Both the position numbers and the translations under genes were made by a program. This document shows, in pieces, positions 19,235-27,337 of a stretch of DNA of 28,035 nt. The notes beneath the pieces were generated by a model, which saw only the letters and a program-made list of their open reading frames with translations, did no database searches and was not told where the DNA came from. Numbering within the stretch: the first letter of the stretch is position 1; every line of letters begins with the position of its first letter. Location: positions 1-28,035 of the forward strand of contig JASHUL010000082.1 of the NCBI GenBank assembly GCA_030039995.1, read 5' to 3'. Origin of the DNA: Thermoplasmata archaeon. Lineage in GTDB: Archaea > Thermoplasmatota > Thermoplasmata > Lutacidiplasmatales > UBA184.

Positions 19235-19447
19235 ATGCGCTACGAGGAGTTTCGTACGGCGATCCGCGAATATCTGACGTCACACCCCCACGGCGCGACG
19301 TGGACGGAGCTCCGGTCCGAGCTGGGAATGACGTATCGGATACCTTGCCCCACGTGGGTGGCCCGGCTGGAGCACGAGATCGGTCTCCTCCGGACTGGTG
19401 GGCCTCGGGGGAAGGTCTGGACGGTCCGAAAGCGACGATCGAGGTAG
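19235..19447 (+). CDS. Small basic winged-helix-like hypothetical protein; 70 aa
   Basis: MRYEEFRTAIREYLTSHPHGATWTELRSELG...GKVWTV, a helix-helix-helix-wing pattern. TTAAGA box 27 nt upstream of ATG 19235. Confidence 0.65.
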   Translation: MRYEEFRTAIREYLTSHPHGATWTELRSELGMTYRIPCPTWVARLEHEIGLLRTGGPRGKVWTVRKRRSR

Positions 19448-19451
19448 GACC

Positions 19452-20702
19452 CTGACGCCCGAAGCGATCCACATCTCGATCGGGCAGGTCCGCCGGCTTT
19501 CGATTGCGAAACAACACCTCGCGGGGCCGAGGCCCGCCCGTCCGGACCGGAAATCGATGCTGGACGTGGTTCGGGACACCGGGTACATCCAGTGGGATCC
19601 GGTCAACGTTGTCGCGCCGGCACACGAGCTCGCGTTCTGGAGTCGGCTGGGCGACTATCGCCACGCGGACCTGGAGCGCCTCATCTGGAAAGAGCGGAAA
19701 CTGTTCCAGGGCTGGGGGCATGCGGCGTCGCTGTTGCTGACGGAGGATTATCCTCTCCACTACTCACTGATGCGTCGGTATCCCGACTGCCTTTCCGACT
19801 CCTGGGGGAATTGGAAACGGCACGCGAAAGCGTGGCTCCCGAGGCACCGCGCACTTCGCCGGGCGATCCTGAGAGAGCTCGGAAAGGGGCCGCGGACCGT
19901 CAGTCAGTTCCCCCGTCACGCGAAGACACGGCGACGCGGCGACGCCTGGAGCTCGTGGAGCGACGTCTCCGCGATGCTGTTTCATCTCTGGATGGCCGGG
20001 GACGTGATGATCTCGGGCCACGAGGGCCGGGCGAACCTGTGGGCGCGGACGGAGGCGTTCCTGCCCACGTGGGCGAAACGGGAAACGCTGCCCGCCGACG
20101 AGGTCGAGCGTGCGCTCGCCCAACGGGCGCTGCGGGCGCTGGGCGTGGCCTCCGCACGGGAGATCAACGTAAGCTTCCCGAACGGACACTACCTGAATCT
20201 GAAGGCGAATCTCGCGAAACTCGTCAAAGACTCGGTCGTCATCCCCGTACGGATCGAGGGGCTGAATTCGAAAGAGACGCGCTACGTCCATCGGGACGAC
20301 GTCTCCCGCCTCGAGTCGCTCTCGGGCGACGGGGAGGAGCCGCGGACGACGATCCTGTCCCCCTTCGACAACTTGATCTGTCTGCGGGCCCGGGTCCACG
20401 AGCTCTTCGACTTCGAATTCTCGCACGAGAACTACGTGCCGCGGGAGAAACGCAAGTACGGGGTGTACGTGATGCCCCTCTTGCGGGGCGACCGATTCGT
20501 GGGTCGGATCGCTCCCCGGATGGACCGGGAGCACCGACGGTTGATCGTCGAGAGCTTCCACACCGAGGGATCCGGACCGGTCGACCCCGGGGCGGCCGTC
20601 GACGTGGCGGATCAGATCCGGGGGTTGGGCCAGTTCCTTGGGGCGGACGAGGTGGTCTACCCGAACAAGTTGCCGAAAGGCTGGCGTCGGGCGCTGAACT
20701 AG
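19452..20702 (+). CDS. YcaQ/AlkZ-family (HTH_42) crosslink-repair DNA glycosylase-like protein; about 416 aa
   Basis: QxD motif in GYIQWDPVNVV, LSPFDNLI, and ELFDFEFSHENYVPREKRKYGVYVMPLLRGDRFVGR. Start uncertain: CTG 19452 after GAGGT, or GTG 19398 overlapping the upstream gene. Confidence 0.88.
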   Translation: MTPEAIHISIGQVRRLSIAKQHLAGPRPARPDRKSMLDVVRDTGYIQWDPVNVVAPAHELAFWSRLGDYRHADLERLIWKERKLFQGWGHAASLLLTEDYPLHYSLMRRYPDCLSDSWGNWKRHAKAWLPRHRALRRAILRELGKGPRTVSQFPRHAKTRRRGDAWSSWSDVSAMLFHLWMAGDVMISGHEGRANLWARTEAFLPTWAKRETLPADEVERALAQRALRALGVASAREINVSFPNGHYLNLKANLAKLVKDSVVIPVRIEGLNSKETRYVHRDDVSRLESLSGDGEEPRTTILSPFDNLICLRARVHELFDFEFSHENYVPREKRKYGVYVMPLLRGDRFVGRIAPRMDREHRRLIVESFHTEGSGPVDPGAAVDVADQIRGLGQFLGADEVVYPNKLPKGWRRALN

Positions 20703-20789: not shown

Positions 20790-21626
20790 ATGCCGTGGAA
20801 ATACACCGATGACTACTACCGGGAATACACCCGGACCACCTGGAACGACAGTGCGGAAGCGTACCTCGGGCTGTTGACCCGCTTCGAACCGTTTCGCGCG
20901 AAGGTCGTGGAGCGGCTCGCCGCGCGCCCCGGCGAACGGGTGCTCGACCTCGGTACCGGGCCCGGCGAGCCCGCGATGACCCTCGCCGTCCAGGTCGGGT
21001 CCCAGGGACACGTGACCGGGGTGGACCTCTCGGAGAAGATGATCGAGATCGCGCGGAAGGTCGCGAACTCTCGACGGCTCCGTAACGTCGACTTCCAAGT
21101 GATGGATTGTTCCTCCCTCACGCTGGCCGATGCGTCGTTCCACGCCGCGACGTGCTGCTTCGGGTTTCAGATCTTCACCGACCCCGAGAAGGCCGCGCGG
21201 GAAACGTACCGCGTGCTGAAACCCGGGGGACGGGTCTCGGTCTGCGTGTGGAGCACGGGCGACAAGGTCCCGTTCCTGCACGCGATCATCGAGCCGATGC
21301 TCGAGCACGCGGAACCCGACGAGACGGGGTATCTGCCTACGCCGTACGAGACCGGCGGCCCCGGCGAGATGGTCGCGTTCCTCGGAGCGGCGGGGTTCCG
21401 CGGCGGGACGGAGCATCATCTGGTGCAGACCCTGCGTTACGACTCCCCGGACGACTACCTCCAGTCGATCCTCCAGGGAACTCCGATCGGTCACTCGCTC
21501 TCGGAGGAGGACCCGAAGACCCAGCAGGAGATCCTCCAGAAGACCCGCTCGAACCTGACCCGCTGGACGACGTCGAGCGGAGTCGGTCTTCCGGCGGAAT
21601 GCGTGGTCGTGACCGCGGTCAAATAG
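20790..21626 (+). CDS. Class I SAM-dependent methyltransferase (UbiE-like fold); 278 aa
   Basis: VLDLGTGPG, VTGVDLSEKMI, ASFHAATCCFG and VLKPGGRV. CATATA box 28 nt upstream. Confidence 0.9.
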   Translation: MPWKYTDDYYREYTRTTWNDSAEAYLGLLTRFEPFRAKVVERLAARPGERVLDLGTGPGEPAMTLAVQVGSQGHVTGVDLSEKMIEIARKVANSRRLRNVDFQVMDCSSLTLADASFHAATCCFGFQIFTDPEKAARETYRVLKPGGRVSVCVWSTGDKVPFLHAIIEPMLEHAEPDETGYLPTPYETGGPGEMVAFLGAAGFRGGTEHHLVQTLRYDSPDDYLQSILQGTPIGHSLSEEDPKTQQEILQKTRSNLTRWTTSSGVGLPAECVVVTAVK

Positions 21627-21709: not shown

Positions 21710-23263
21710 ATGTCCAACGATTCCGACGCGGCGCGCATTTGGCGCGACCGCGAGCAGCGAAGGGCGGTCGAGCGGGCCCGGATCGATGAAGAGCGGACCG
21801 ACCGTCGTCGAGAGCTCGGGCGGCTCGGTGGCAACCCCGACGGGCTGCCTCCTTCCCCCGAAGACCCGGGACCCCCATCCGCTCGGACCTCGAGTTCGGC
21901 GCGACCGTCCGGCGCCGTGACCTCCTCGTCCGGCGCGGTACCCGAGGGAGCCCATCGCGGCGGCGCTCCGCGGGAAATCGGGGGAGCGCTCCGACCCCCG
22001 TCGCTGCAGGAGTTCCTTCAGACCAATCCGATGGAGCGGTTCAACATCCTCGCGCTCAACGCTCAACGGTTTCCGGAACTGCTCGAGGCGGCCCGGGGGG
22101 ACGCGCTCCTCCTCGCCGCGATCGCGCGCCAGACCGAGGCGCTGATGGCACGGGTGAAGGAGGAGGTGGACGACCCGCTCAGCGCCGGAGCGTTCCTTCG
22201 CGACCAAGTGTATCGCTGGTATCGGGACAGCCCCGGCGAGGACGACTGGTCGGAGCGAATGTCCGACTGTTGGGCCGGACTGTTCGCCGACTCCCGGGTG
22301 AGTGGAGGCCGTCTGCAGCCCTGGCTCAATCTCCGACTCGGAGCCCTCCATGCGCAGGCCTCCCGATCGGGGTCGCTCGGGGGTCGGATGCGAGACAGCC
22401 TGCGGCGGAAGCGCCCCGCGGAGGTGGCCGTCGGCCGATCGACGATCCAGCAGATCCGCGCGGAAGTCGCCCAGGCGATCCTGGACGACCTGACCCGCCG
22501 CCGTCGGGATCCGGAGGGGCCGGTGCCGCTGGTCCACCTCAGCGAGCTCGCGATCCGTCGTCAGGTCGCGACGATCAACGACGTGCTCGCGCAGCTCTTC
22601 AACGGCCCCGAGACCGGGCCGTTCATCGTCCTCCACCCGAACCGGTACCCCGAGTGCGACGAAGTGCAGATCCGACCGCCGGTCGGGAACGTCATGGGAG
22701 CCGCCCTCGCCTACAGCCTCTCCACGGGGCGTTCGAGCCGGAAGCCCGTCGGTCGGACCCGCGGCCCCGCCGAGGCGGGAGTCCCCGCCGCGGGGGAGAG
22801 CCCGGACGACCCCGGCACGGACGACTCCGAGGAGCTCGACTCCTCGACGATCTGGGAGGCGGACCGTGTCGATGCCTCCGTGTGGCGTCGCGTGATCAAG
22901 GAACGCAAGCGCGAGCGCCACCGACTCGACACTCCCCCCAAGGACTGCCACGGTCGTAGCGCCTACGGGCCGCTGCGAACCCTCGTCCTCGAGGACACCG
23001 AGTTCCGCCAGTCGTTCCTTGCGGTGAAATGGCGGGGTCGTCCGGCGGGCCTCCCTCTGCTGTGCGCGCTCCTGCAGAAAGGGACGCTCGCGCCCGAGGT
23101 GGCGACGGACCACGAATACCTCGAAGCCGAGCTCGGCGACCTCGCGAAGGGCGACCCGCAGTGGCATCCGCCCGACCACACCTGGGCGATCGGCGAGTGG
23201 ACGGTCGCCCGCGAAGGCTCTCACGGCGAGGGGTTCCGTTTCACGGCCCAGCGACGCACGTAG
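21710..23263 (+). CDS. Hypothetical protein; 517 aa
   Basis: Long ORF with GC-biased third positions and a protein-like composition from MSNDSDAARIW onward. AAACCATTAAG promoter-like element at 21651-21661. The track's extension to 21107 overlaps the methyltransferase and was trimmed. Confidence 0.75.
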   Translation: MSNDSDAARIWRDREQRRAVERARIDEERTDRRRELGRLGGNPDGLPPSPEDPGPPSARTSSSARPSGAVTSSSGAVPEGAHRGGAPREIGGALRPPSLQEFLQTNPMERFNILALNAQRFPELLEAARGDALLLAAIARQTEALMARVKEEVDDPLSAGAFLRDQVYRWYRDSPGEDDWSERMSDCWAGLFADSRVSGGRLQPWLNLRLGALHAQASRSGSLGGRMRDSLRRKRPAEVAVGRSTIQQIRAEVAQAILDDLTRRRRDPEGPVPLVHLSELAIRRQVATINDVLAQLFNGPETGPFIVLHPNRYPECDEVQIRPPVGNVMGAALAYSLSTGRSSRKPVGRTRGPAEAGVPAAGESPDDPGTDDSEELDSSTIWEADRVDASVWRRVIKERKRERHRLDTPPKDCHGRSAYGPLRTLVLEDTEFRQSFLAVKWRGRPAGLPLLCALLQKGTLAPEVATDHEYLEAELGDLAKGDPQWHPPDHTWAIGEWTVAREGSHGEGFRFTAQRRT

Positions 23264-23296: not shown

Positions 23297-24235
23297 CTAC
23301 GACCCTTCGTCCTCGCCGGGAAAACGATGGGCGAGGACGCCGAGCTGGTGGATCAGGGTCCGGTACTCCTCGAACGGGTACTCGGGCTCCCACCCGCCGA
23401 CCGGGATCCGCGAACGACGGGCGATCCGCACTCCCGCGGAGCCGGGAACCAGTTGGAGACCGCTGAAGAACCACTGCGGGGGCGCGATGCGGGAGCCGCG
23501 CATCCCCTTCGCGCTCTCGAGCAGGCGGAGCGTGTGCGGGAAGTAGGCGGAGAGGATCCGCGACCCGACCGCCTCCCGGATACCGGACTGCCAGCTCGCC
23601 GGCGGGCTCGGCGGCACGAGGAGGCGGGCGAGGGTCCCCGGCGGGCACTGGTCGAACTTCGTGACCACGAACAGGGGATAGAGGTCCTGCGGCTTCCGCT
23701 GACGGCCTAGCGACAGGTAGCGGCTCAACAGCCCGAGCGTCGCCGCGAGGCGTCGGTCCGAGACGTCCAGGGGTCGGGAGTTCGTCGCGGGGTCGATCGG
23801 GCGCAGCCGCGACGCGTCGATGAGCGGGAGCACGACGGGGCTCTCGAAGAGGCGACGGGTCGACAGCTCGAGGATCGCGTCGTGCTGGGCGAGCTCCGCC
23901 ACGGACTCGGCCGAGATGCCCCCGAACTGGAGGCGAAACGAGGCGAAGCCGCCGCTGTGGTGGACCGCCGCGCCCGTCAGCCGAGGGAACGTACCGGTCC
24001 GGAAGGCGAAGACAAAGGAGAGCGGGTGGGTGTCCCAGTCGGCGTCCCACTCGGGGAACCGACCGGCCACCAGTTCTCCGTAGATCCCTTCCAGCTGTCG
24101 GATCGTCTCCCGGTCGGCGGAGAAACGGAACTTGTCTCCCTCCTCCGTGCCCAGGCGAAGCTGGGCCGCGTAAAGGAGACCGACGAACGTCGTGAGGCCG
24201 GACCCTCGGTCGCCGACGACCACCGCGGATCCCAA
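23297..24235 (-). CDS. TRAFAC-type GTPase paralog, predicted inactive (pseudo-GTPase); 312 aa
   Basis: Collinear with the 25137-26162 GTPase, but P-loop is GDRGSGLT, G2 region RFPEWD, G3 GISAE; G4 TKFD is retained. TTG start preceded by GGAGGT. Confidence 0.82.
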   Translation of the reverse strand: MGSAVVVGDRGSGLTTFVGLLYAAQLRLGTEEGDKFRFSADRETIRQLEGIYGELVAGRFPEWDADWDTHPLSFVFAFRTGTFPRLTGAAVHHSGGFASFRLQFGGISAESVAELAQHDAILELSTRRLFESPVVLPLIDASRLRPIDPATNSRPLDVSDRRLAATLGLLSRYLSLGRQRKPQDLYPLFVVTKFDQCPPGTLARLLVPPSPPASWQSGIREAVGSRILSAYFPHTLRLLESAKGMRGSRIAPPQWFFSGLQLVPGSAGVRIARRSRIPVGGWEPEYPFEEYRTLIHQLGVLAHRFPGEDEGS

Positions 24236-24275: not shown

Positions 24276-25088
24276 TCACGCGGACGCGAACGCCTCCGCG
24301 ATGCGGCTGTAGACCAGGTTCTTCCCCTTGGCCGGCGGGAGCGTCGGCTGGTCGATGCTCGCGTCCAGCAGCGTCCACGAGCCGTCCGCGCGCACGCCGC
24401 GCGAAGAGATCGCGAGGCGGAAGTGATTCATCGCGCTCAGGGTCGGGGCGTCGCTGATCGCGGGCAGGAGTCCGATCTCCTCCCCGGCGTAGAGCAGCTC
24501 CACCAGTCGATAGAGGAGCTCGTTGCGGTACTGGTTCGTGCTGCCGCGGCAGAGGATCAGGGTGCGTCCCTGCTGGTCCGACAGGAACCGGCTCGCCAAC
24601 GTGTCGACGGCGGCCTTGGTGATCAGCCGGTGGATACCGGTCCCTCGCGGCTCGAGGACGTCCCCGAACGGGCGGACCGGCACGGAGATCGGGTCGATCT
24701 TGCCGGTGGCCTTCGGGAACTTCTTGTCGAAGTCGAGCGTCGCCGACTCCACGTCGACGAACCGAAGCCGACCGTTCCGCATCGCGTCGAAGGGGATCAC
24801 CACCGTGTGGTTCGCGATCGTCGGCCGGTTGTACTCGTCCGCGACCCCCCGGCCGAGGATCGAGAGGAGCACCTCCCGATTCGCCGGGGCCGGGTGGATC
24901 ATGCGGGCGTCGATCACCGTGCCGCCGCCCGCCGTCTTCTCGACCCGCACCGGCGTGAAGTGGTTCTCGAGGTACCGCATGTAGAGCGGGCCGTTCAGCC
25001 CGCGGGACTCCGCCTTGATCCCGTACCCCTTCTCGTGGCTCGCGCCGTAGATCCAGTGCTCCAGCGGGAGCACCGTCTCGTCATTCAT
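24276..25088 (-). CDS. GTPase-associated protein (GAP1-N2-like; possibly DENN-like); 270 aa
   Basis: HWIYGASHEKGYGIKAESRGL and DEYNRPTIANHTVVI resemble my recollection of the GAP1-N-type signature (Y-G...G-Y-G-x-x-A-x-S; D-x-x-x-R...H). It lies between two GTPases and has a strong GGAGGTG Shine-Dalgarno. Confidence 0.65.
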   Translation of the reverse strand: MNDETVLPLEHWIYGASHEKGYGIKAESRGLNGPLYMRYLENHFTPVRVEKTAGGGTVIDARMIHPAPANREVLLSILGRGVADEYNRPTIANHTVVIPFDAMRNGRLRFVDVESATLDFDKKFPKATGKIDPISVPVRPFGDVLEPRGTGIHRLITKAAVDTLASRFLSDQQGRTLILCRGSTNQYRNELLYRLVELLYAGEEIGLLPAISDAPTLSAMNHFRLAISSRGVRADGSWTLLDASIDQPTLPPAKGKNLVYSRIAEAFASA

Positions 25089-25136: not shown

Positions 25137-26162
25137 TTAGGCCGTCGCGGTGGCGGGCGCCGCCGGGGTCTGGAGCGTCGTCTGCTCCACGATCTCGTCG
25201 GGCACCTTGTTCGCGACGTCGCGGAAGTGCTCGATGAACGCGACGTAGTCGTCGTAGGAGAAGTCCGGCTCCGCTCCGCCCTCGGCCGAGAAGCCCTTGC
25301 GGACGATGCGCGGCACCCCGATCGGCTGCATGCCGGCTTCCGCGGTCTCCGTCCGGACCCAGCTGAAGAAGTACGCCGCCTGGTCGAAGTTGACCCCGGC
25401 GACCTTGCCTCCGCGGATCTGCGAGAGCGTCTGGGGCATGAAGACGCGGAGCAGCGCCTCGGCGTACTCCTTGCGCTTGCGCTTTTGCTTGCCGTCCGGG
25501 ACCCCGCGGTGCAGCCCGAGCTTCACCAGGACCTCGTCCCGGATGGAATCGAACTTCGACAGCACGATCGCCGGGTAGATCACCGGGTTGCCGACGCTGA
25601 GCCCCTGCGCCTTCATCCGCGAGAACTCCTGCTTCTTGTACGTCTGGAGCGAGACGAGGAGCGAGGCGACCTCGCTGTCGTACTTCAGCATCTGGCGGAA
25701 GACCGGGGAGTCGATCTCGGTCGTCATCTTGCTGCAGTCGACCAGCGTGACGACGACGTGGCTCTTCAGGAGCTGCTGGATGATCGGACTCGCGGCGACG
25801 CCGGTCTCGATGAACTCCTGGACATCCTCGCCCGAGACATCGAACGCGGCGAACGAGAGCTTGGCGAACGGATTCACCCAGTTCTTGTCCTTCAGGGACG
25901 CCGGGAGCCGGCCCGCCAGGGGCTTTCGGTATCCGAAGACGAAACCGATCTCCGTCATCTCGTCCTTGAGCGTGGCCCCGGGGAATCGGGCGTCCTTCAT
26001 CCCCTCGTAGACCTGGCTCATCAGACGCAACGACTGGAGCGGGGCGTGGAATCGAAACGAATCCGACACCCGAGTTCCGTACTTCACCTGGGCCGCGTAG
26101 AGCAGCCCGAGGAAGGTCGTCTTTCCGCACGCACGGTCACCCAAAATCGCCGCTGGACACAT
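25137..26162 (-). CDS. TRAFAC-type P-loop GTPase (double-GTPase-system-like), predicted active; 341 aa
   Basis: G1 GDRACGKT, G2 Thr in RFPGAT, G3 DVSGE, G4 SKFD. AAGGAG precedes the ATG. Confidence 0.88.
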   Translation of the reverse strand: MCPAAILGDRACGKTTFLGLLYAAQVKYGTRVSDSFRFHAPLQSLRLMSQVYEGMKDARFPGATLKDEMTEIGFVFGYRKPLAGRLPASLKDKNWVNPFAKLSFAAFDVSGEDVQEFIETGVAASPIIQQLLKSHVVVTLVDCSKMTTEIDSPVFRQMLKYDSEVASLLVSLQTYKKQEFSRMKAQGLSVGNPVIYPAIVLSKFDSIRDEVLVKLGLHRGVPDGKQKRKRKEYAEALLRVFMPQTLSQIRGGKVAGVNFDQAAYFFSWVRTETAEAGMQPIGVPRIVRKGFSAEGGAEPDFSYDDYVAFIEHFRDVANKVPDEIVEQTTLQTPAAPATATA

Positions 26163-26186: not shown

Positions 26187-27167
26187 CTACGAGGGCCAAG
26201 AGTCGCTCGACCGCTCTTGTGCGGGGTCGCCCCAGGGCGACGTGCGCGAAGGGGACGAACACTCGCCCCCCGTAGGACCGTGAAGGAAGGCGAACGGGGA
26301 CTCCGCCCCGACGAGAGACTCCTCGGACCCGAGCGGTTGGTCAAAGACCGCGCCCGAACGGGAGGTGTCGGGCTCGTCGCTCGAGCGCCGGCTCGTCTGT
26401 TGGATCTCCCCACCGAGGATGCGGAGCACGCGCTCCGTCCGGGCCAGCCGCGCGTCGAGGGCGCTCAGCTGCGCGCTCAAGGTGTCGAGGGACTCGTCGG
26501 CCTCCGGGTCCGGTTCTCCCCGAGGGGTGGCGGGGGCCATCGGAGGCGGAACGATCCGGTGCAGCTCGGTGATCGTGAGGGTCCGGATGGCGAGCCCCAC
26601 CCCGACAAGGTCCGGAGCCGCCGACGCCTGGACCTCGGCCGCGAGCCGGTCCCAGTCGGGTTCTCCGGAGTCGGTGTTGATGCGCGCGAGCACGGAAGGG
26701 ATCGCTCCCTCCAGCGTTCGAGCGACGAGCGCTCGGACCTCCTCCTCGGACTTTCCGAGAAGATTCTCCGACGCCATCGAAAGGAAGTTCGGCATCGCGG
26801 GGACCTTGGCCTGCGCCTGAGCGCGGACCTCCCAGCCCGACGCCCGGTTCCCCTCGAGCGCATGCATCGACCGGACGGTCACGTCGACCACGACGGGCGC
26901 GAGCGAGAGATAGCCCACCCCGCGGTCCCAGGGGGCGACGAGCACCCGACCGCCGACCACGATCTTCGGCCGGCGGACCGTGACGTCGAACGGCATCACG
27001 GTCGGGTCGGGAGCGGACCGGGGGGCCTTCCGCCCGAACAGCACGAGCGCCCGGTTGGGGGGGACCTGTACGCTGCACCGAGTGTAGGCGACCCAGAATC
27101 CTCCTGCGATCGCGGCCGCGATGCCGCCGGCCTCGGCGAGCTGCCAGGCTAGATCGATGAACGCCAC
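26187..27167 (-). CDS. Flotillin-like SPFH-domain membrane protein with a shortened coiled-coil tail; about 326 aa
   Basis: N-terminal TM, then VPPNRALVLFGR, KIVVGG, ASENLLGKSEEEVRALVARTLEG and AAEVQASAAPDLVGVGLAIRTLTITEL, all matching flotillin SPFH patterns. Start moved to GTG 27167. Confidence 0.85.
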   Translation of the reverse strand: MAFIDLAWQLAEAGGIAAAIAGGFWVAYTRCSVQVPPNRALVLFGRKAPRSAPDPTVMPFDVTVRRPKIVVGGRVLVAPWDRGVGYLSLAPVVVDVTVRSMHALEGNRASGWEVRAQAQAKVPAMPNFLSMASENLLGKSEEEVRALVARTLEGAIPSVLARINTDSGEPDWDRLAAEVQASAAPDLVGVGLAIRTLTITELHRIVPPPMAPATPRGEPDPEADESLDTLSAQLSALDARLARTERVLRILGGEIQQTSRRSSDEPDTSRSGAVFDQPLGSEESLVGAESPFAFLHGPTGGECSSPSRTSPWGDPAQERSSDSWPS

Positions 27168-27337
27168 ATTCTGCCTTGCCACACCCCGGAAGGGACGCCG
27201 TGCGCGGCAAGCGCGCGGCGCTCCTGGTGCCAACGGTCGACCCGGGCGGCGTTAGCAGACGCGGTCTCTTGGTCCGAAAAAAGTCCGAAGTGGAAGAGGC
27301 CGGGTCCGACAGAGTCCCCGCTCATTGGGCCCGTCAT
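27149..27337 (-). CDS. Possible small leader protein of the flotillin-GTPase operon; 62 aa
   Basis: MTGPMSGDSVGPGLFHFGLFSDQETASANAARVDRWHQERRALAAHGVPSGVWQGRMWRSSI*. Purine-rich GGAGGGAAG upstream, a TATTTAT box at about 27418-27412, and a 19-nt overlap with the flotillin start. Confidence 0.35.
   Translation of the reverse strand: MTGPMSGDSVGPGLFHFGLFSDQETASANAARVDRWHQERRALAAHGVPSGVWQGRMWRSSI

What the first reader, a model, noticed from the sequence alone, without database searches (positions are those of the whole stretch)
23297..24235. Pseudo-GTPase: full-length paralog with G1, G2 and G3 all degenerate but G4 kept
Seen, active copy versus this copy: GDRACGKT vs GDRGSGLT (P-loop Lys to Leu), RFPGAT vs RFPEWD (switch-I Thr lost), DVSGE vs GISAE (Walker B Asp and Gly lost), SKFD vs TKFD (kept). 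Non-catalytic segments stay strongly conserved: GLLYAAQ is identical, and GT..D.FRF, YFFSW/WFFSG and GGAEPDFSYDDY/GGWEPEYPFEEY match. The frame is intact with its own Shine-Dalgarno. Inferred: selection preserves the fold and probably a dimer interface rather than catalysis, giving an active/inactive heterodimer.
Basis: partly seen in the sequence, partly recalled or inferred. Interest (0 to 1): 0.72.

Follow-up and report, generated by a model that had tools for sequence, protein, structure and literature searches.

The report
Conserved dead twin of archaeal GTPase
A Thermoplasmata archaeon keeps, under clear purifying selection, a catalytically crippled copy of a neighbouring GTPase that is predicted to bind the live copy, so the pair looks like a one-live, one-dead switch inside an untested archaeal variant of the 'double-GTPase/GAP1' gene systems.

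Summary
Window 23297-24235 (-) encodes a 312-aa full-length paralog (B) of the GTPase at 25137-26162 (A): 28% identity, E 1e-34. In B the P-loop Lys is Leu, the switch-I Thr and the DxxG motif are gone, and TKFD is kept.

B is not decaying.
- In 119 orthologs (down to 49% identity) position 14 is Leu 116 times, Gln 3 times, never Lys.
- G4 (T-K-x-D) and the G5 Ser are invariant. Their codons vary synonymously.
- dN/dS in close pairs is 0.04-0.17.

B folds as a G domain (pLDDT 86.7; YcjX Z 13.9). A complex model supports A:B binding: ipSAE 0.81, best control 0.00. That mark was reached by 58 of 80 solved complexes and 2 of 110 mismatched pairs. The predicted interface is asymmetric, and each face is conserved only in the paralog that uses it.

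The family is a distant branch of the DO-GTPases of Kaur et al. 2020. The gene between A and B is GAP1-like by fold. The set flotillin-like, A, GAP1-like, B plus a convergent orphan gene recurs in about 40 Thermoplasmata species, but its distribution is patchy (43 of 301 genomes).

This scan found the same system before on other DNA. I class it as a new variant of a known kind. Its biological role is unknown.

The parts
23297..24235 (-). B: 312-aa pseudo-GTPase paralog. G1 is GDRGSGLTT (Leu14 codon at 24194-24196). The G3 position reads GGISAE (about 23909-23926). G4 TKFD is at about 23651-23662. G5 is FFS.
   Evidence: sequence; orthologs; fold; selection
24276..25088 (-). C: 270-aa protein between the two GTPases. 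It is GAP1-like (N2 plus M) with a longin/DENN-like fold. Its median identity over about 40 species is 74%.
   Evidence: Pfam HMMs themselves gave nothing.
25137..26162 (-). A: 341-aa active GTPase (GDRACGKT, switch-I Thr, DVSGE with the Walker-B Glu, SKFD). Median identity over about 40 species is 93%.
26187..27233 (-). Flotillin/SPFH-like protein at the head of the gene row. The start codon is uncertain. There is a hydrophobic N-terminal segment.
   Evidence: NCBIfam FloT 3.3e-11, far below its cut-off; co-located in 34 loci; Band_7 in L046
21710..23263 (+). D: convergent 517-aa orphan protein, always next to B. The likely start is the ATG at 21710. The N-terminus is low-complexity.
   Evidence: conserved at 47-76%; no family or solved relative found

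Best explanation
B is a selected, catalytically dead GTPase paralog (a pseudo-GTPase). It serves as the non-hydrolysing subunit of an A:B heterodimer.

Shown here: B has a G-domain fold and lacks the P-loop Lys, the switch-I Thr and the Walker-B Asp/Gly. These losses are fixed across its orthologs, and the gene is under purifying selection.

Predicted here: B docks with its beta2/alpha-helical edge (residues 25-57, 75-77, 94-99) and a B-specific RR..GGW hairpin (273-282). These sit on the helical back side of A (148-174, 235-255, including a conserved RGGK loop) and on the end of A's switch-II helix (118-121).

Inferred: B keeps G4 and G5 intact, so it may still hold a guanine nucleotide without turning it over. 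The dimer is regulated by the GAP1-like, DENN-like protein C encoded between the two genes. It works at the membrane with the flotillin-like protein and the orphan protein D. The whole is a stripped-down archaeal variant of the DO-GTPase/GAP1 'GTPase-centric' systems. Whether it serves defence or a cellular membrane task is open.
For: Orthologs:
- 120 relatives were listed down to 49% identity, all Thermoplasmata MAGs where named.
- Leu14 is present in 116 of 119, Gln in 3, Lys in none.
- T192, K193, D195 and S258 are present in 119 of 119.
- Leu14 is coded by CTC, CTG and CTT, and Arg273 by all four CGN codons.

Selection: NG86 omega for B is 0.04-0.17 in pairs with dN below 0.15. In the same pairs A is 0.01-0.03 and C is 0.03-0.10. 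For window against L004, B has dN 0.088, dS 0.58, omega 0.15.

Fold: the AF2 model has pLDDT 86.7 and pTM 0.88. VIA-align gives YcjX Z 13.9 (261 aligned) and Rag-like GTPases Z 12-13. AFDB matches include DO-GTPase1/2 entries at TM 0.5-0.6.

Family link: 45 of 65 family members hit Pfam DO-GTPase2 (best 9.5e-9) and 33 hit DO-GTPase1.

Complex: ipSAE was 0.84, 0.81 and 0.80, against a best control of 0.00. The mark was reached by 58 of 80 solved and 2 of 110 mismatched pairs. The runs share at least 88% of contacts and partner pLDDT is at least 80. My own alignments were used.

Interface conservation: B's contact residues have entropy 0.85 against 1.43 for the rest (Mann-Whitney p 0.001). A's contact face is 0.79 times the A mean, while the equivalent face of B is 1.59 times the B mean. 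B's contact face is 0.63 times the B mean, while the equivalent face of A is 1.15 times the A mean.

Gene linkage: the set A, C, B and convergent D recurs in about 40 species loci, with the flotillin-like gene found in 34 of them. It also recurs in other gene orders in more distant lineages.

C is GAP1-like by fold: TM 0.6-0.7 to bacterial GAP1-N2/M clusters and feature scores of 0.93-0.96.
Against: - There is no biochemical evidence. Inactivity and binding are both inferred from sequence and models.
- The P-loop backbone (GxxGxG-L-T-T), G4 and G5 are intact, so nucleotide binding or even slow turnover is not excluded.
- The complex score is a model's confidence. It was obtained with unpaired alignments of my own, and A:A and B:B were not run for comparison.
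- Neither A (21.7 bits) nor B (11.3 bits) reaches the Pfam DO-GTPase2 cut-off of 27. C has no Pfam GAP1 hit.
- Distribution is patchy, even within one genus (13 of 33 genomes at least 80% complete). That fits an accessory module and leaves the role open.
Confidence: 0.72

Rival explanations
1. B is a decaying duplicate, a pseudogene in the making, with no function of its own.
For: Three of the five G motifs are degenerate. B evolves faster than A: median identity is 51% against 93% over the same loci.
Against: The frame is intact in 119 orthologs. The 'degenerate' residues themselves are invariant (Leu14, G105, G106, D64, W67), and synonymous codons turn over at fixed residues. Omega is 0.04-0.17 in close pairs.
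Confidence: 0.02
2. B is still an NTPase. It would use non-canonical residues in place of the P-loop Lys and Walker-B Asp, so it is not a pseudo-enzyme.
For: The P-loop glycines, T15, T16, G4 (TKxD) and G5 (S258) are invariant, which suggests a preserved nucleotide pocket. Some sister lineages of B keep GKT while lacking DxxG.
Against: No B-specific invariant Lys or Arg could be assigned to the pocket from sequence. The B-specific invariant R273/R274 lie in the predicted contact with A, not near the P-loop. Switch-I Thr, Walker-B Asp and the family's signature Glu-bearing DxxGE are all missing.
Confidence: 0.08
3. B does not pair with A. It is a stand-alone scaffold that binds C, D or the flotillin-like protein, and the predicted A:B interface is a modelling artefact of paralogy.
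For: Structure predictors tend to pair paralogs. Only one complex job could be run, with unpaired alignments. B's gene is next to C and D, not next to A, in this clade.
Against: The three controls scored 0.00. The predicted faces show side-specific conservation that a paralog artefact would not predict. In other lineages the B-type gene lies directly beside A (L003, L045, L046, L050).
Confidence: 0.12
4. On the biological role: the module is an anti-virus conflict system of the kind Kaur et al. proposed, and B acts as a sensor or decoy subunit rather than as part of a housekeeping membrane switch.
For: The family link to DO-GTPase/GAP1 systems holds. Distribution within the class and within one genus is patchy. 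The genomic flanks differ between clades.
Against: No effector-like or hypervariable domain was found in the five genes. There are no PADLOC hits. A is 93% identical across species whose other module proteins are about 50% identical, with omega 0.01-0.03, which is unlike arms-race genes. One distant locus lies among FtsZ, Spt5 and L11 core genes.
Confidence: 0.3

Closest known systems
DO-GTPase (double-GTPase) / GAP1 'GTPase-centric' systems, GAP1-N2 type (Kaur, Burroughs, Iyer, Aravind 2020, eLife, PMC7159879; Pfam PF19975, PF19993, PF20013, PF20014)
   Same: A has the TRAFAC GTPase with a Glu in Walker B (DxxGE). There are two paralogous GTPase genes per locus, predicted to act as a dimer. 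A GAP1-like gene lies downstream of a GTPase. A membrane link exists.
   Different: - A and B fall below the Pfam cut-offs, and C has no Pfam hit.
- There are no zinc ribbons or TM segments on the GTPases.
- GAP1 is cut down to about 270 aa, without the C domain or any fused effector.
- There is no FNIII or GASH partner. Instead there are a flotillin-like protein and an orphan 517-aa protein.
- The second GTPase is a fixed pseudo-GTPase. The parts of the paper I read and searched do not mention this.
- The hosts are Thermoplasmata archaea.
YcjX stress GTPase (PDB 6nz4/6nz5)
   Same: It is the best solved structural match to the B model: Z 13.9, 261 residues aligned, rmsd 4.4. It is also the Foldseek top hit. 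Both are an enlarged G domain with helical insertions.
   Different: Sequence identity is 10-11%. YcjX is an active GTPase of about 460 aa. No paired dead paralog is known to me (my own knowledge).
Eukaryotic pseudo-GTPases and live/dead G-domain pairs (CENP-M, p190RhoGAP pG domains, Rnd proteins; SMG9-SMG8)
   Same: A G-domain fold is kept while the G motifs are lost, and the protein is used as a binding module. These are the examples listed in PMC10211241. SMG8-SMG9 appears among the Foldseek hits.
   Different: There is no sequence relationship. All examples in that review are eukaryotic. Here the dead copy is a separate gene beside its live paralog in an archaeal operon.
Rag GTPase heterodimer with the FLCN-FNIP (longin-DENN) regulator
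   Same: Rag-like G domains are among the best structural matches to B (Z 12-13). C shows weak TagF, C9orf72-SMCR8, FLCN-FNIP and Lst4-longin matches. Both are a two-GTPase unit with a DENN-type regulator on a membrane scaffold.
   Different: This is an analogy only. Rag pairs dimerise through C-terminal roadblock domains and both subunits cycle nucleotide (my own knowledge). The matches for C are weak (TM at most 0.45).

Membership tests
TRAFAC-class P-loop GTPase fold | G-domain alpha/beta fold | tested here: met
   The AF2 model has pLDDT 86.7. VIA-align gives YcjX Z 13.9, LokiRagO Z 13.0, RagD Z 12.3. Foldseek PDB hits at E below 1e-3 are almost all GTPase domains (YcjX, G-alpha, atlastin, RNF112, septin, SMG9).
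Active GTPase | G1 GxxxxGK[ST], switch-I Thr, G3 DxxG | tested here: not met
   B has GDRGSGLTT, RFPEWD and GGISAE. The same holds in 119 orthologs, with Lys14 in none. A meets all three.
Pseudo-GTPase (G-domain fold with G motifs lost, kept by selection) | G fold, missing catalytic motifs, and conservation | tested here: met
   fold; motifs; omega 0.04-0.17 and synonymous codon turnover.
Pseudo-GTPase | No GTP hydrolysis; nucleotide binding class | not testable with these tools
   This needs purified protein. Intact G4 and G5 hint at retained guanine binding.
DO-GTPase (Pfam PF19993 / PF19975) | Score at or above the Pfam gathering cut-off (27 bits) | tested here: not met
   B scores 11.3 bits (E 0.28) and A scores 21.7 bits (E 1.8e-4), both for PF19993. 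Relatives link the family to it: 45 of 65 members hit PF19993 (best 9.5e-9) and 33 hit PF19975. AFDB fold hits are named DO-GTPase1/2.
DO-GTPase | Conserved Glu in Walker B (DxxGE) | tested here: met
   This is met by A and all A-type relatives (D108, G111, E112 invariant). B has lost the Asp and Gly but usually keeps the Glu position (GGISAE).
DO-GTPase/GAP1 GTPase-centric system | Two paralogous GTPase genes in one neighbourhood | tested here: met
   The own genome holds exactly A and B.
DO-GTPase/GAP1 GTPase-centric system | GAP1 protein encoded next to the GTPase | tested here: inconclusive
   C matches bacterial GAP1-N2/M clusters by fold (TM 0.58-0.70) and by language-model features (0.90-0.96). 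No Pfam GAP1 model is hit by any of 38 orthologs. C lacks GAP1-C.
DO-GTPase/GAP1 GTPase-centric system | Variable effector components; FNIII (N2 type) or GASH (N1 type) partner | tested here: not met
   There are no Pfam or PADLOC hits in D, the flotillin-like protein, C, A or B. D is conserved (47-76% identity), not hypervariable.

The most novel reading that the evidence does not exclude
The five genes form a membrane-bound cellular switch rather than an immune system. A is an extremely constrained live GTPase. B is a nucleotide-holding but non-hydrolysing twin that docks on A's back side and touches its switch-II helix, perhaps through the B-specific invariant Arg pair. C is a minimal longin/DENN-type regulator. 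All sit on a flotillin platform. This would be an archaeal counterpart in logic to Rag-heterodimer/FLCN-FNIP signalling, and a prokaryotic example of a selected pseudo-GTPase (the pseudo-GTPase examples in the one review I checked are all eukaryotic).
Probability: 0.25. Interest if true: 0.8.

Novelty: new variant of a known kind. Interest (0 to 1): 0.55.

Why it matters
The pseudo-GTPase examples listed in the review I read (PMC10211241) are all eukaryotic. Here a dead G domain is a separate, strongly selected gene beside its live paralog in a compact archaeal operon, with a small DENN-like partner. That is a simple system in which to ask what a dead GTPase subunit does for a live one.

It also refines the computational DO-GTPase model. 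'Two paralogs, hence a dimer' becomes 'one live and one dead subunit with a directional interface'. The predicted contact residues give concrete points to mutate.

Tried and rejected
- Pfam, NCBIfam and PADLOC scans of B, C and D gave nothing at the usual thresholds.
- The atlas feature search of D gave no usable hit. The PDB profile search of D gave only a chance-level hit.
- The search for related loci with the broad family alignment failed for lack of a conserved stretch. It worked with the B-clade alignment.
- Pooling all pairs with NG86 dS between 0.2 and 1 gave an inflated median omega of 0.47 for B. I reject that figure. In these GC-rich genes synonymous sites saturate, so dS is underestimated in divergent pairs. 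Only close pairs are quoted.
- The flank comparison was noisy because of spurious high-GC ORFs. It shows at least three different flank contexts but does not settle mobility.
- A head-to-tail alternating A-B polymer was considered. I think it unlikely, because the B face that would have to receive the next subunit is the least conserved part of B.
- An AU test did not reject a single origin of all degenerate copies (p 0.084). The number of independent inactivations therefore stays open.
- Cluster look-ups gave almost no organism names for distant relatives.
- Whether the second GTPase of bacterial DO-GTPase systems is also degenerate was not tested.

Full report
**Observation.** On the minus strand the window carries four consecutive genes:
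- a flotillin-like gene (26187-27233)
- A (25137-26162, 341 aa)
- C (24276-25088, 270 aa)
- B (23297-24235, 312 aa)

B starts at TTG with GGAGG 7 nt upstream. Its orthologs start at the same residue with ATG or GTG. BLASTP of A against B gives 28% identity over the full length, E 1e-34.

**Is B decaying or selected?** A search of 5.8 billion proteins found 180 relatives of B, of which the best 120 were listed. These reach down to 49% identity and are all Thermoplasmata MAGs where a name exists. In 119 full-length orthologs:
- position 14 is Leu 116 times, Gln 3 times and never Lys
- the two glycines that replace the Walker-B position are kept
- T192, K193, D195 (G4) and S258 (G5) are invariant

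At the DNA level, over 40 loci, Leu14 is coded by CTC, CTG and CTT, and the invariant Arg273 by all four CGN codons. Synonymous change has therefore accumulated while the residues stayed fixed.

Nei-Gojobori omega in close pairs is 0.04-0.17 for B. In the same pairs it is 0.03-0.10 for C and 0.01-0.03 for A. For window against L004, B has dN 0.088, dS 0.58 and omega 0.15. A pooled figure over divergent pairs was inflated by synonymous saturation and is not used.

**Fold and family.**
- AlphaFold2 with a 65-row alignment gives a confident G-domain model (pLDDT 86.7, pTM 0.88).
- The best solved match is YcjX (Z 13.9, 261 residues). Rag-like GTPases, Arl and SR-beta follow.
- Foldseek against the PDB agrees, at low TM.
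- In AlphaFold DB the nearest named clusters are DO-GTPase1/2 proteins (TM 0.5-0.6).
- By sequence, A scores 21.7 bits and B 11.3 bits on Pfam DO-GTPase2, both under the 27-bit cut-off.
- However, 45 of 65 family members hit DO-GTPase2 (best 9.5e-9) and 33 hit DO-GTPase1.

Kaur et al. 2020 (PMC7159879) define DO-GTPases as TRAFAC GTPases with a Glu in Walker B. These often occur as two paralogs thought to dimerise, with a GAP1 protein encoded downstream. A has exactly that DxxGE. The DO-GTPase overview section I read in full does not say that one copy is inactive, and a term search of the whole paper for 'inactive' and 'catalytically', of which 12 of 20 places were shown, turned up no such statement.

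**The neighbours.** C has no Pfam hit in any of 38 orthologs. Its language-model features (0.90-0.96) and its predicted fold (pLDDT 67; TM 0.58-0.70) match bacterial GAP1-N2/GAP1-M clusters. Its weak PDB matches are TagF, C9orf72-SMCR8, FLCN-FNIP and the Lst4 longin domain, that is, DENN-type modules.

In 41 loci from species-representative genomes, A, C, B and a convergent orphan gene D recur wherever the fetched DNA reaches them, and the flotillin-like gene was found in 34 loci. In the window D runs from 21710 to 23263 (+) and is 517 aa.

Median identity to the window's proteins over these loci is 93% for A, 74% for C, 51% for B, 52% for D and 45% for the flotillin-like protein. More distant lineages keep the same parts in other orders:
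- B-A-C with convergent D in L045. There B keeps GKT but lacks DxxG.
- B-A with convergent D, then Band_7 and a second A-C pair, in L046.
- A-C-B in L049, where G1 has Ala.
- A-B in L050.

D has no detectable family.

**History of the dead copy.** Among 89 representatives, A-type proteins keep all motifs. Degenerate paralogs always lack DxxG, while the P-loop position varies (K, L, R, T, S, G, A, Q). Most keep the G4 KxD. The tree scatters degenerate copies over several clades. An AU test does not reject a single origin (p 0.084). A live/dead pair is thus an old and general trait of this archaeal branch, and G3 loss appears to precede G1 loss.

**Does B bind A?** One controlled complex prediction was run.
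- The scores were ipSAE 0.84, 0.81 and 0.80, against a best control of 0.00.
- The mark was reached by 58 of 80 solved complexes and 2 of 110 mismatched pairs.
- The runs share at least 88% of contacts and partner pLDDT is at least 80.
- My own alignments were used, so the calibration holds only roughly.

I know of no solved structure of a DO-GTPase pair, which makes a pass from memory unlikely. The interface is directional. B contributes the end of helix 1, strand beta2 (the FRF segment), the following helix (25-57), the strand edges 75-77 and 94-99, and the hairpin 273-282. A contributes 118-121 (the end of the switch-II helix), 148-174, 214-216 and 235-255, including a conserved RGGK loop.

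Conservation matches this direction:
- B's contact face has 0.63 times B's mean entropy.
- A's contact face has 0.79 times A's mean entropy.
- The equivalent face of B is its least conserved part (1.59 times the mean).
- The equivalent face of A is about average (1.15 times the mean).

B's contact residues are more conserved than the rest (Mann-Whitney p 0.001). This argues for a defined heterodimer and against an alternating polymer. It remains a prediction.

**Distribution and role.** The window's own genome is a 65%-complete MAG and holds only A and B. Among 301 Thermoplasmata-class genomes at least 80% complete, 43 carry the family. Within the window's genus, 13 of 33 do. Flanking genes differ between clades.

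That patchiness fits an accessory module, as Kaur et al. proposed for conflict systems. Other points do not fit an arms-race system: no effector or hypervariable part was found, PADLOC is silent, and A is under extreme constraint. I leave the biological role open. My estimates are about 0.3 for defence and about 0.25 for the most novel reading, a cellular membrane switch.

**Verdict.** B is a fixed, selected pseudo-GTPase that is predicted to pair with its live paralog. The system is a stripped-down archaeal variant of the DO-GTPase/GAP1 kind, not a new category.

The scan has reported the same system before on other DNA. Those notes agree with this report. I reached the DO-GTPase and GAP1 links before reading them. 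The PDB fold search of C was prompted by one of them.

Noticed in passing
window 25137-26162 (-) and loci L001-L044: A is 91-96% identical across most species loci, where B, D and the flotillin-like protein are about 50%. In several close pairs its synonymous distance is also lower than B's (for example 0.29 against 0.71, and 0.35 against 0.65). That hints at codon bias or high expression.
   Followed up: partly
window 21710-23263 (+): This is a convergent 517-aa orphan gene (D), always beside B. It has a low-complexity charged and Pro/Ser-rich N-terminus and many invariant Trp, Arg and Pro residues. No family, atlas or PDB relative was found.
   Followed up: partly
L046:5873-13116: One metagenomic contig holds a B-type gene (GLTT) directly upstream of an A copy with convergent D. 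A Band_7 gene follows, then a second A copy with a C gene but no second B within the fetched DNA.
   Followed up: no
L045:2712-9892: In a more distant Thermoplasmatota contig the B-A-C module lies a few genes from two FtsZ genes, Spt5 and ribosomal protein L11, which is a core-gene neighbourhood.
   Followed up: no
G286:C28:171955-172878: A same-family genome has four family matches. One B-like copy is interrupted by a TAG, so it may be a broken extra copy.
   Followed up: no
window 20790-21626 (+): This UbiE/MenG-type SAM methyltransferase also hits the PADLOC model mad2 (2e-26). The hit is probably to the generic methyltransferase fold rather than a defence link.
   Followed up: no
window 19398-20702 (+): This 434-aa ORF has no NCBIfam or PADLOC hit. 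It was not examined further.
   Followed up: no
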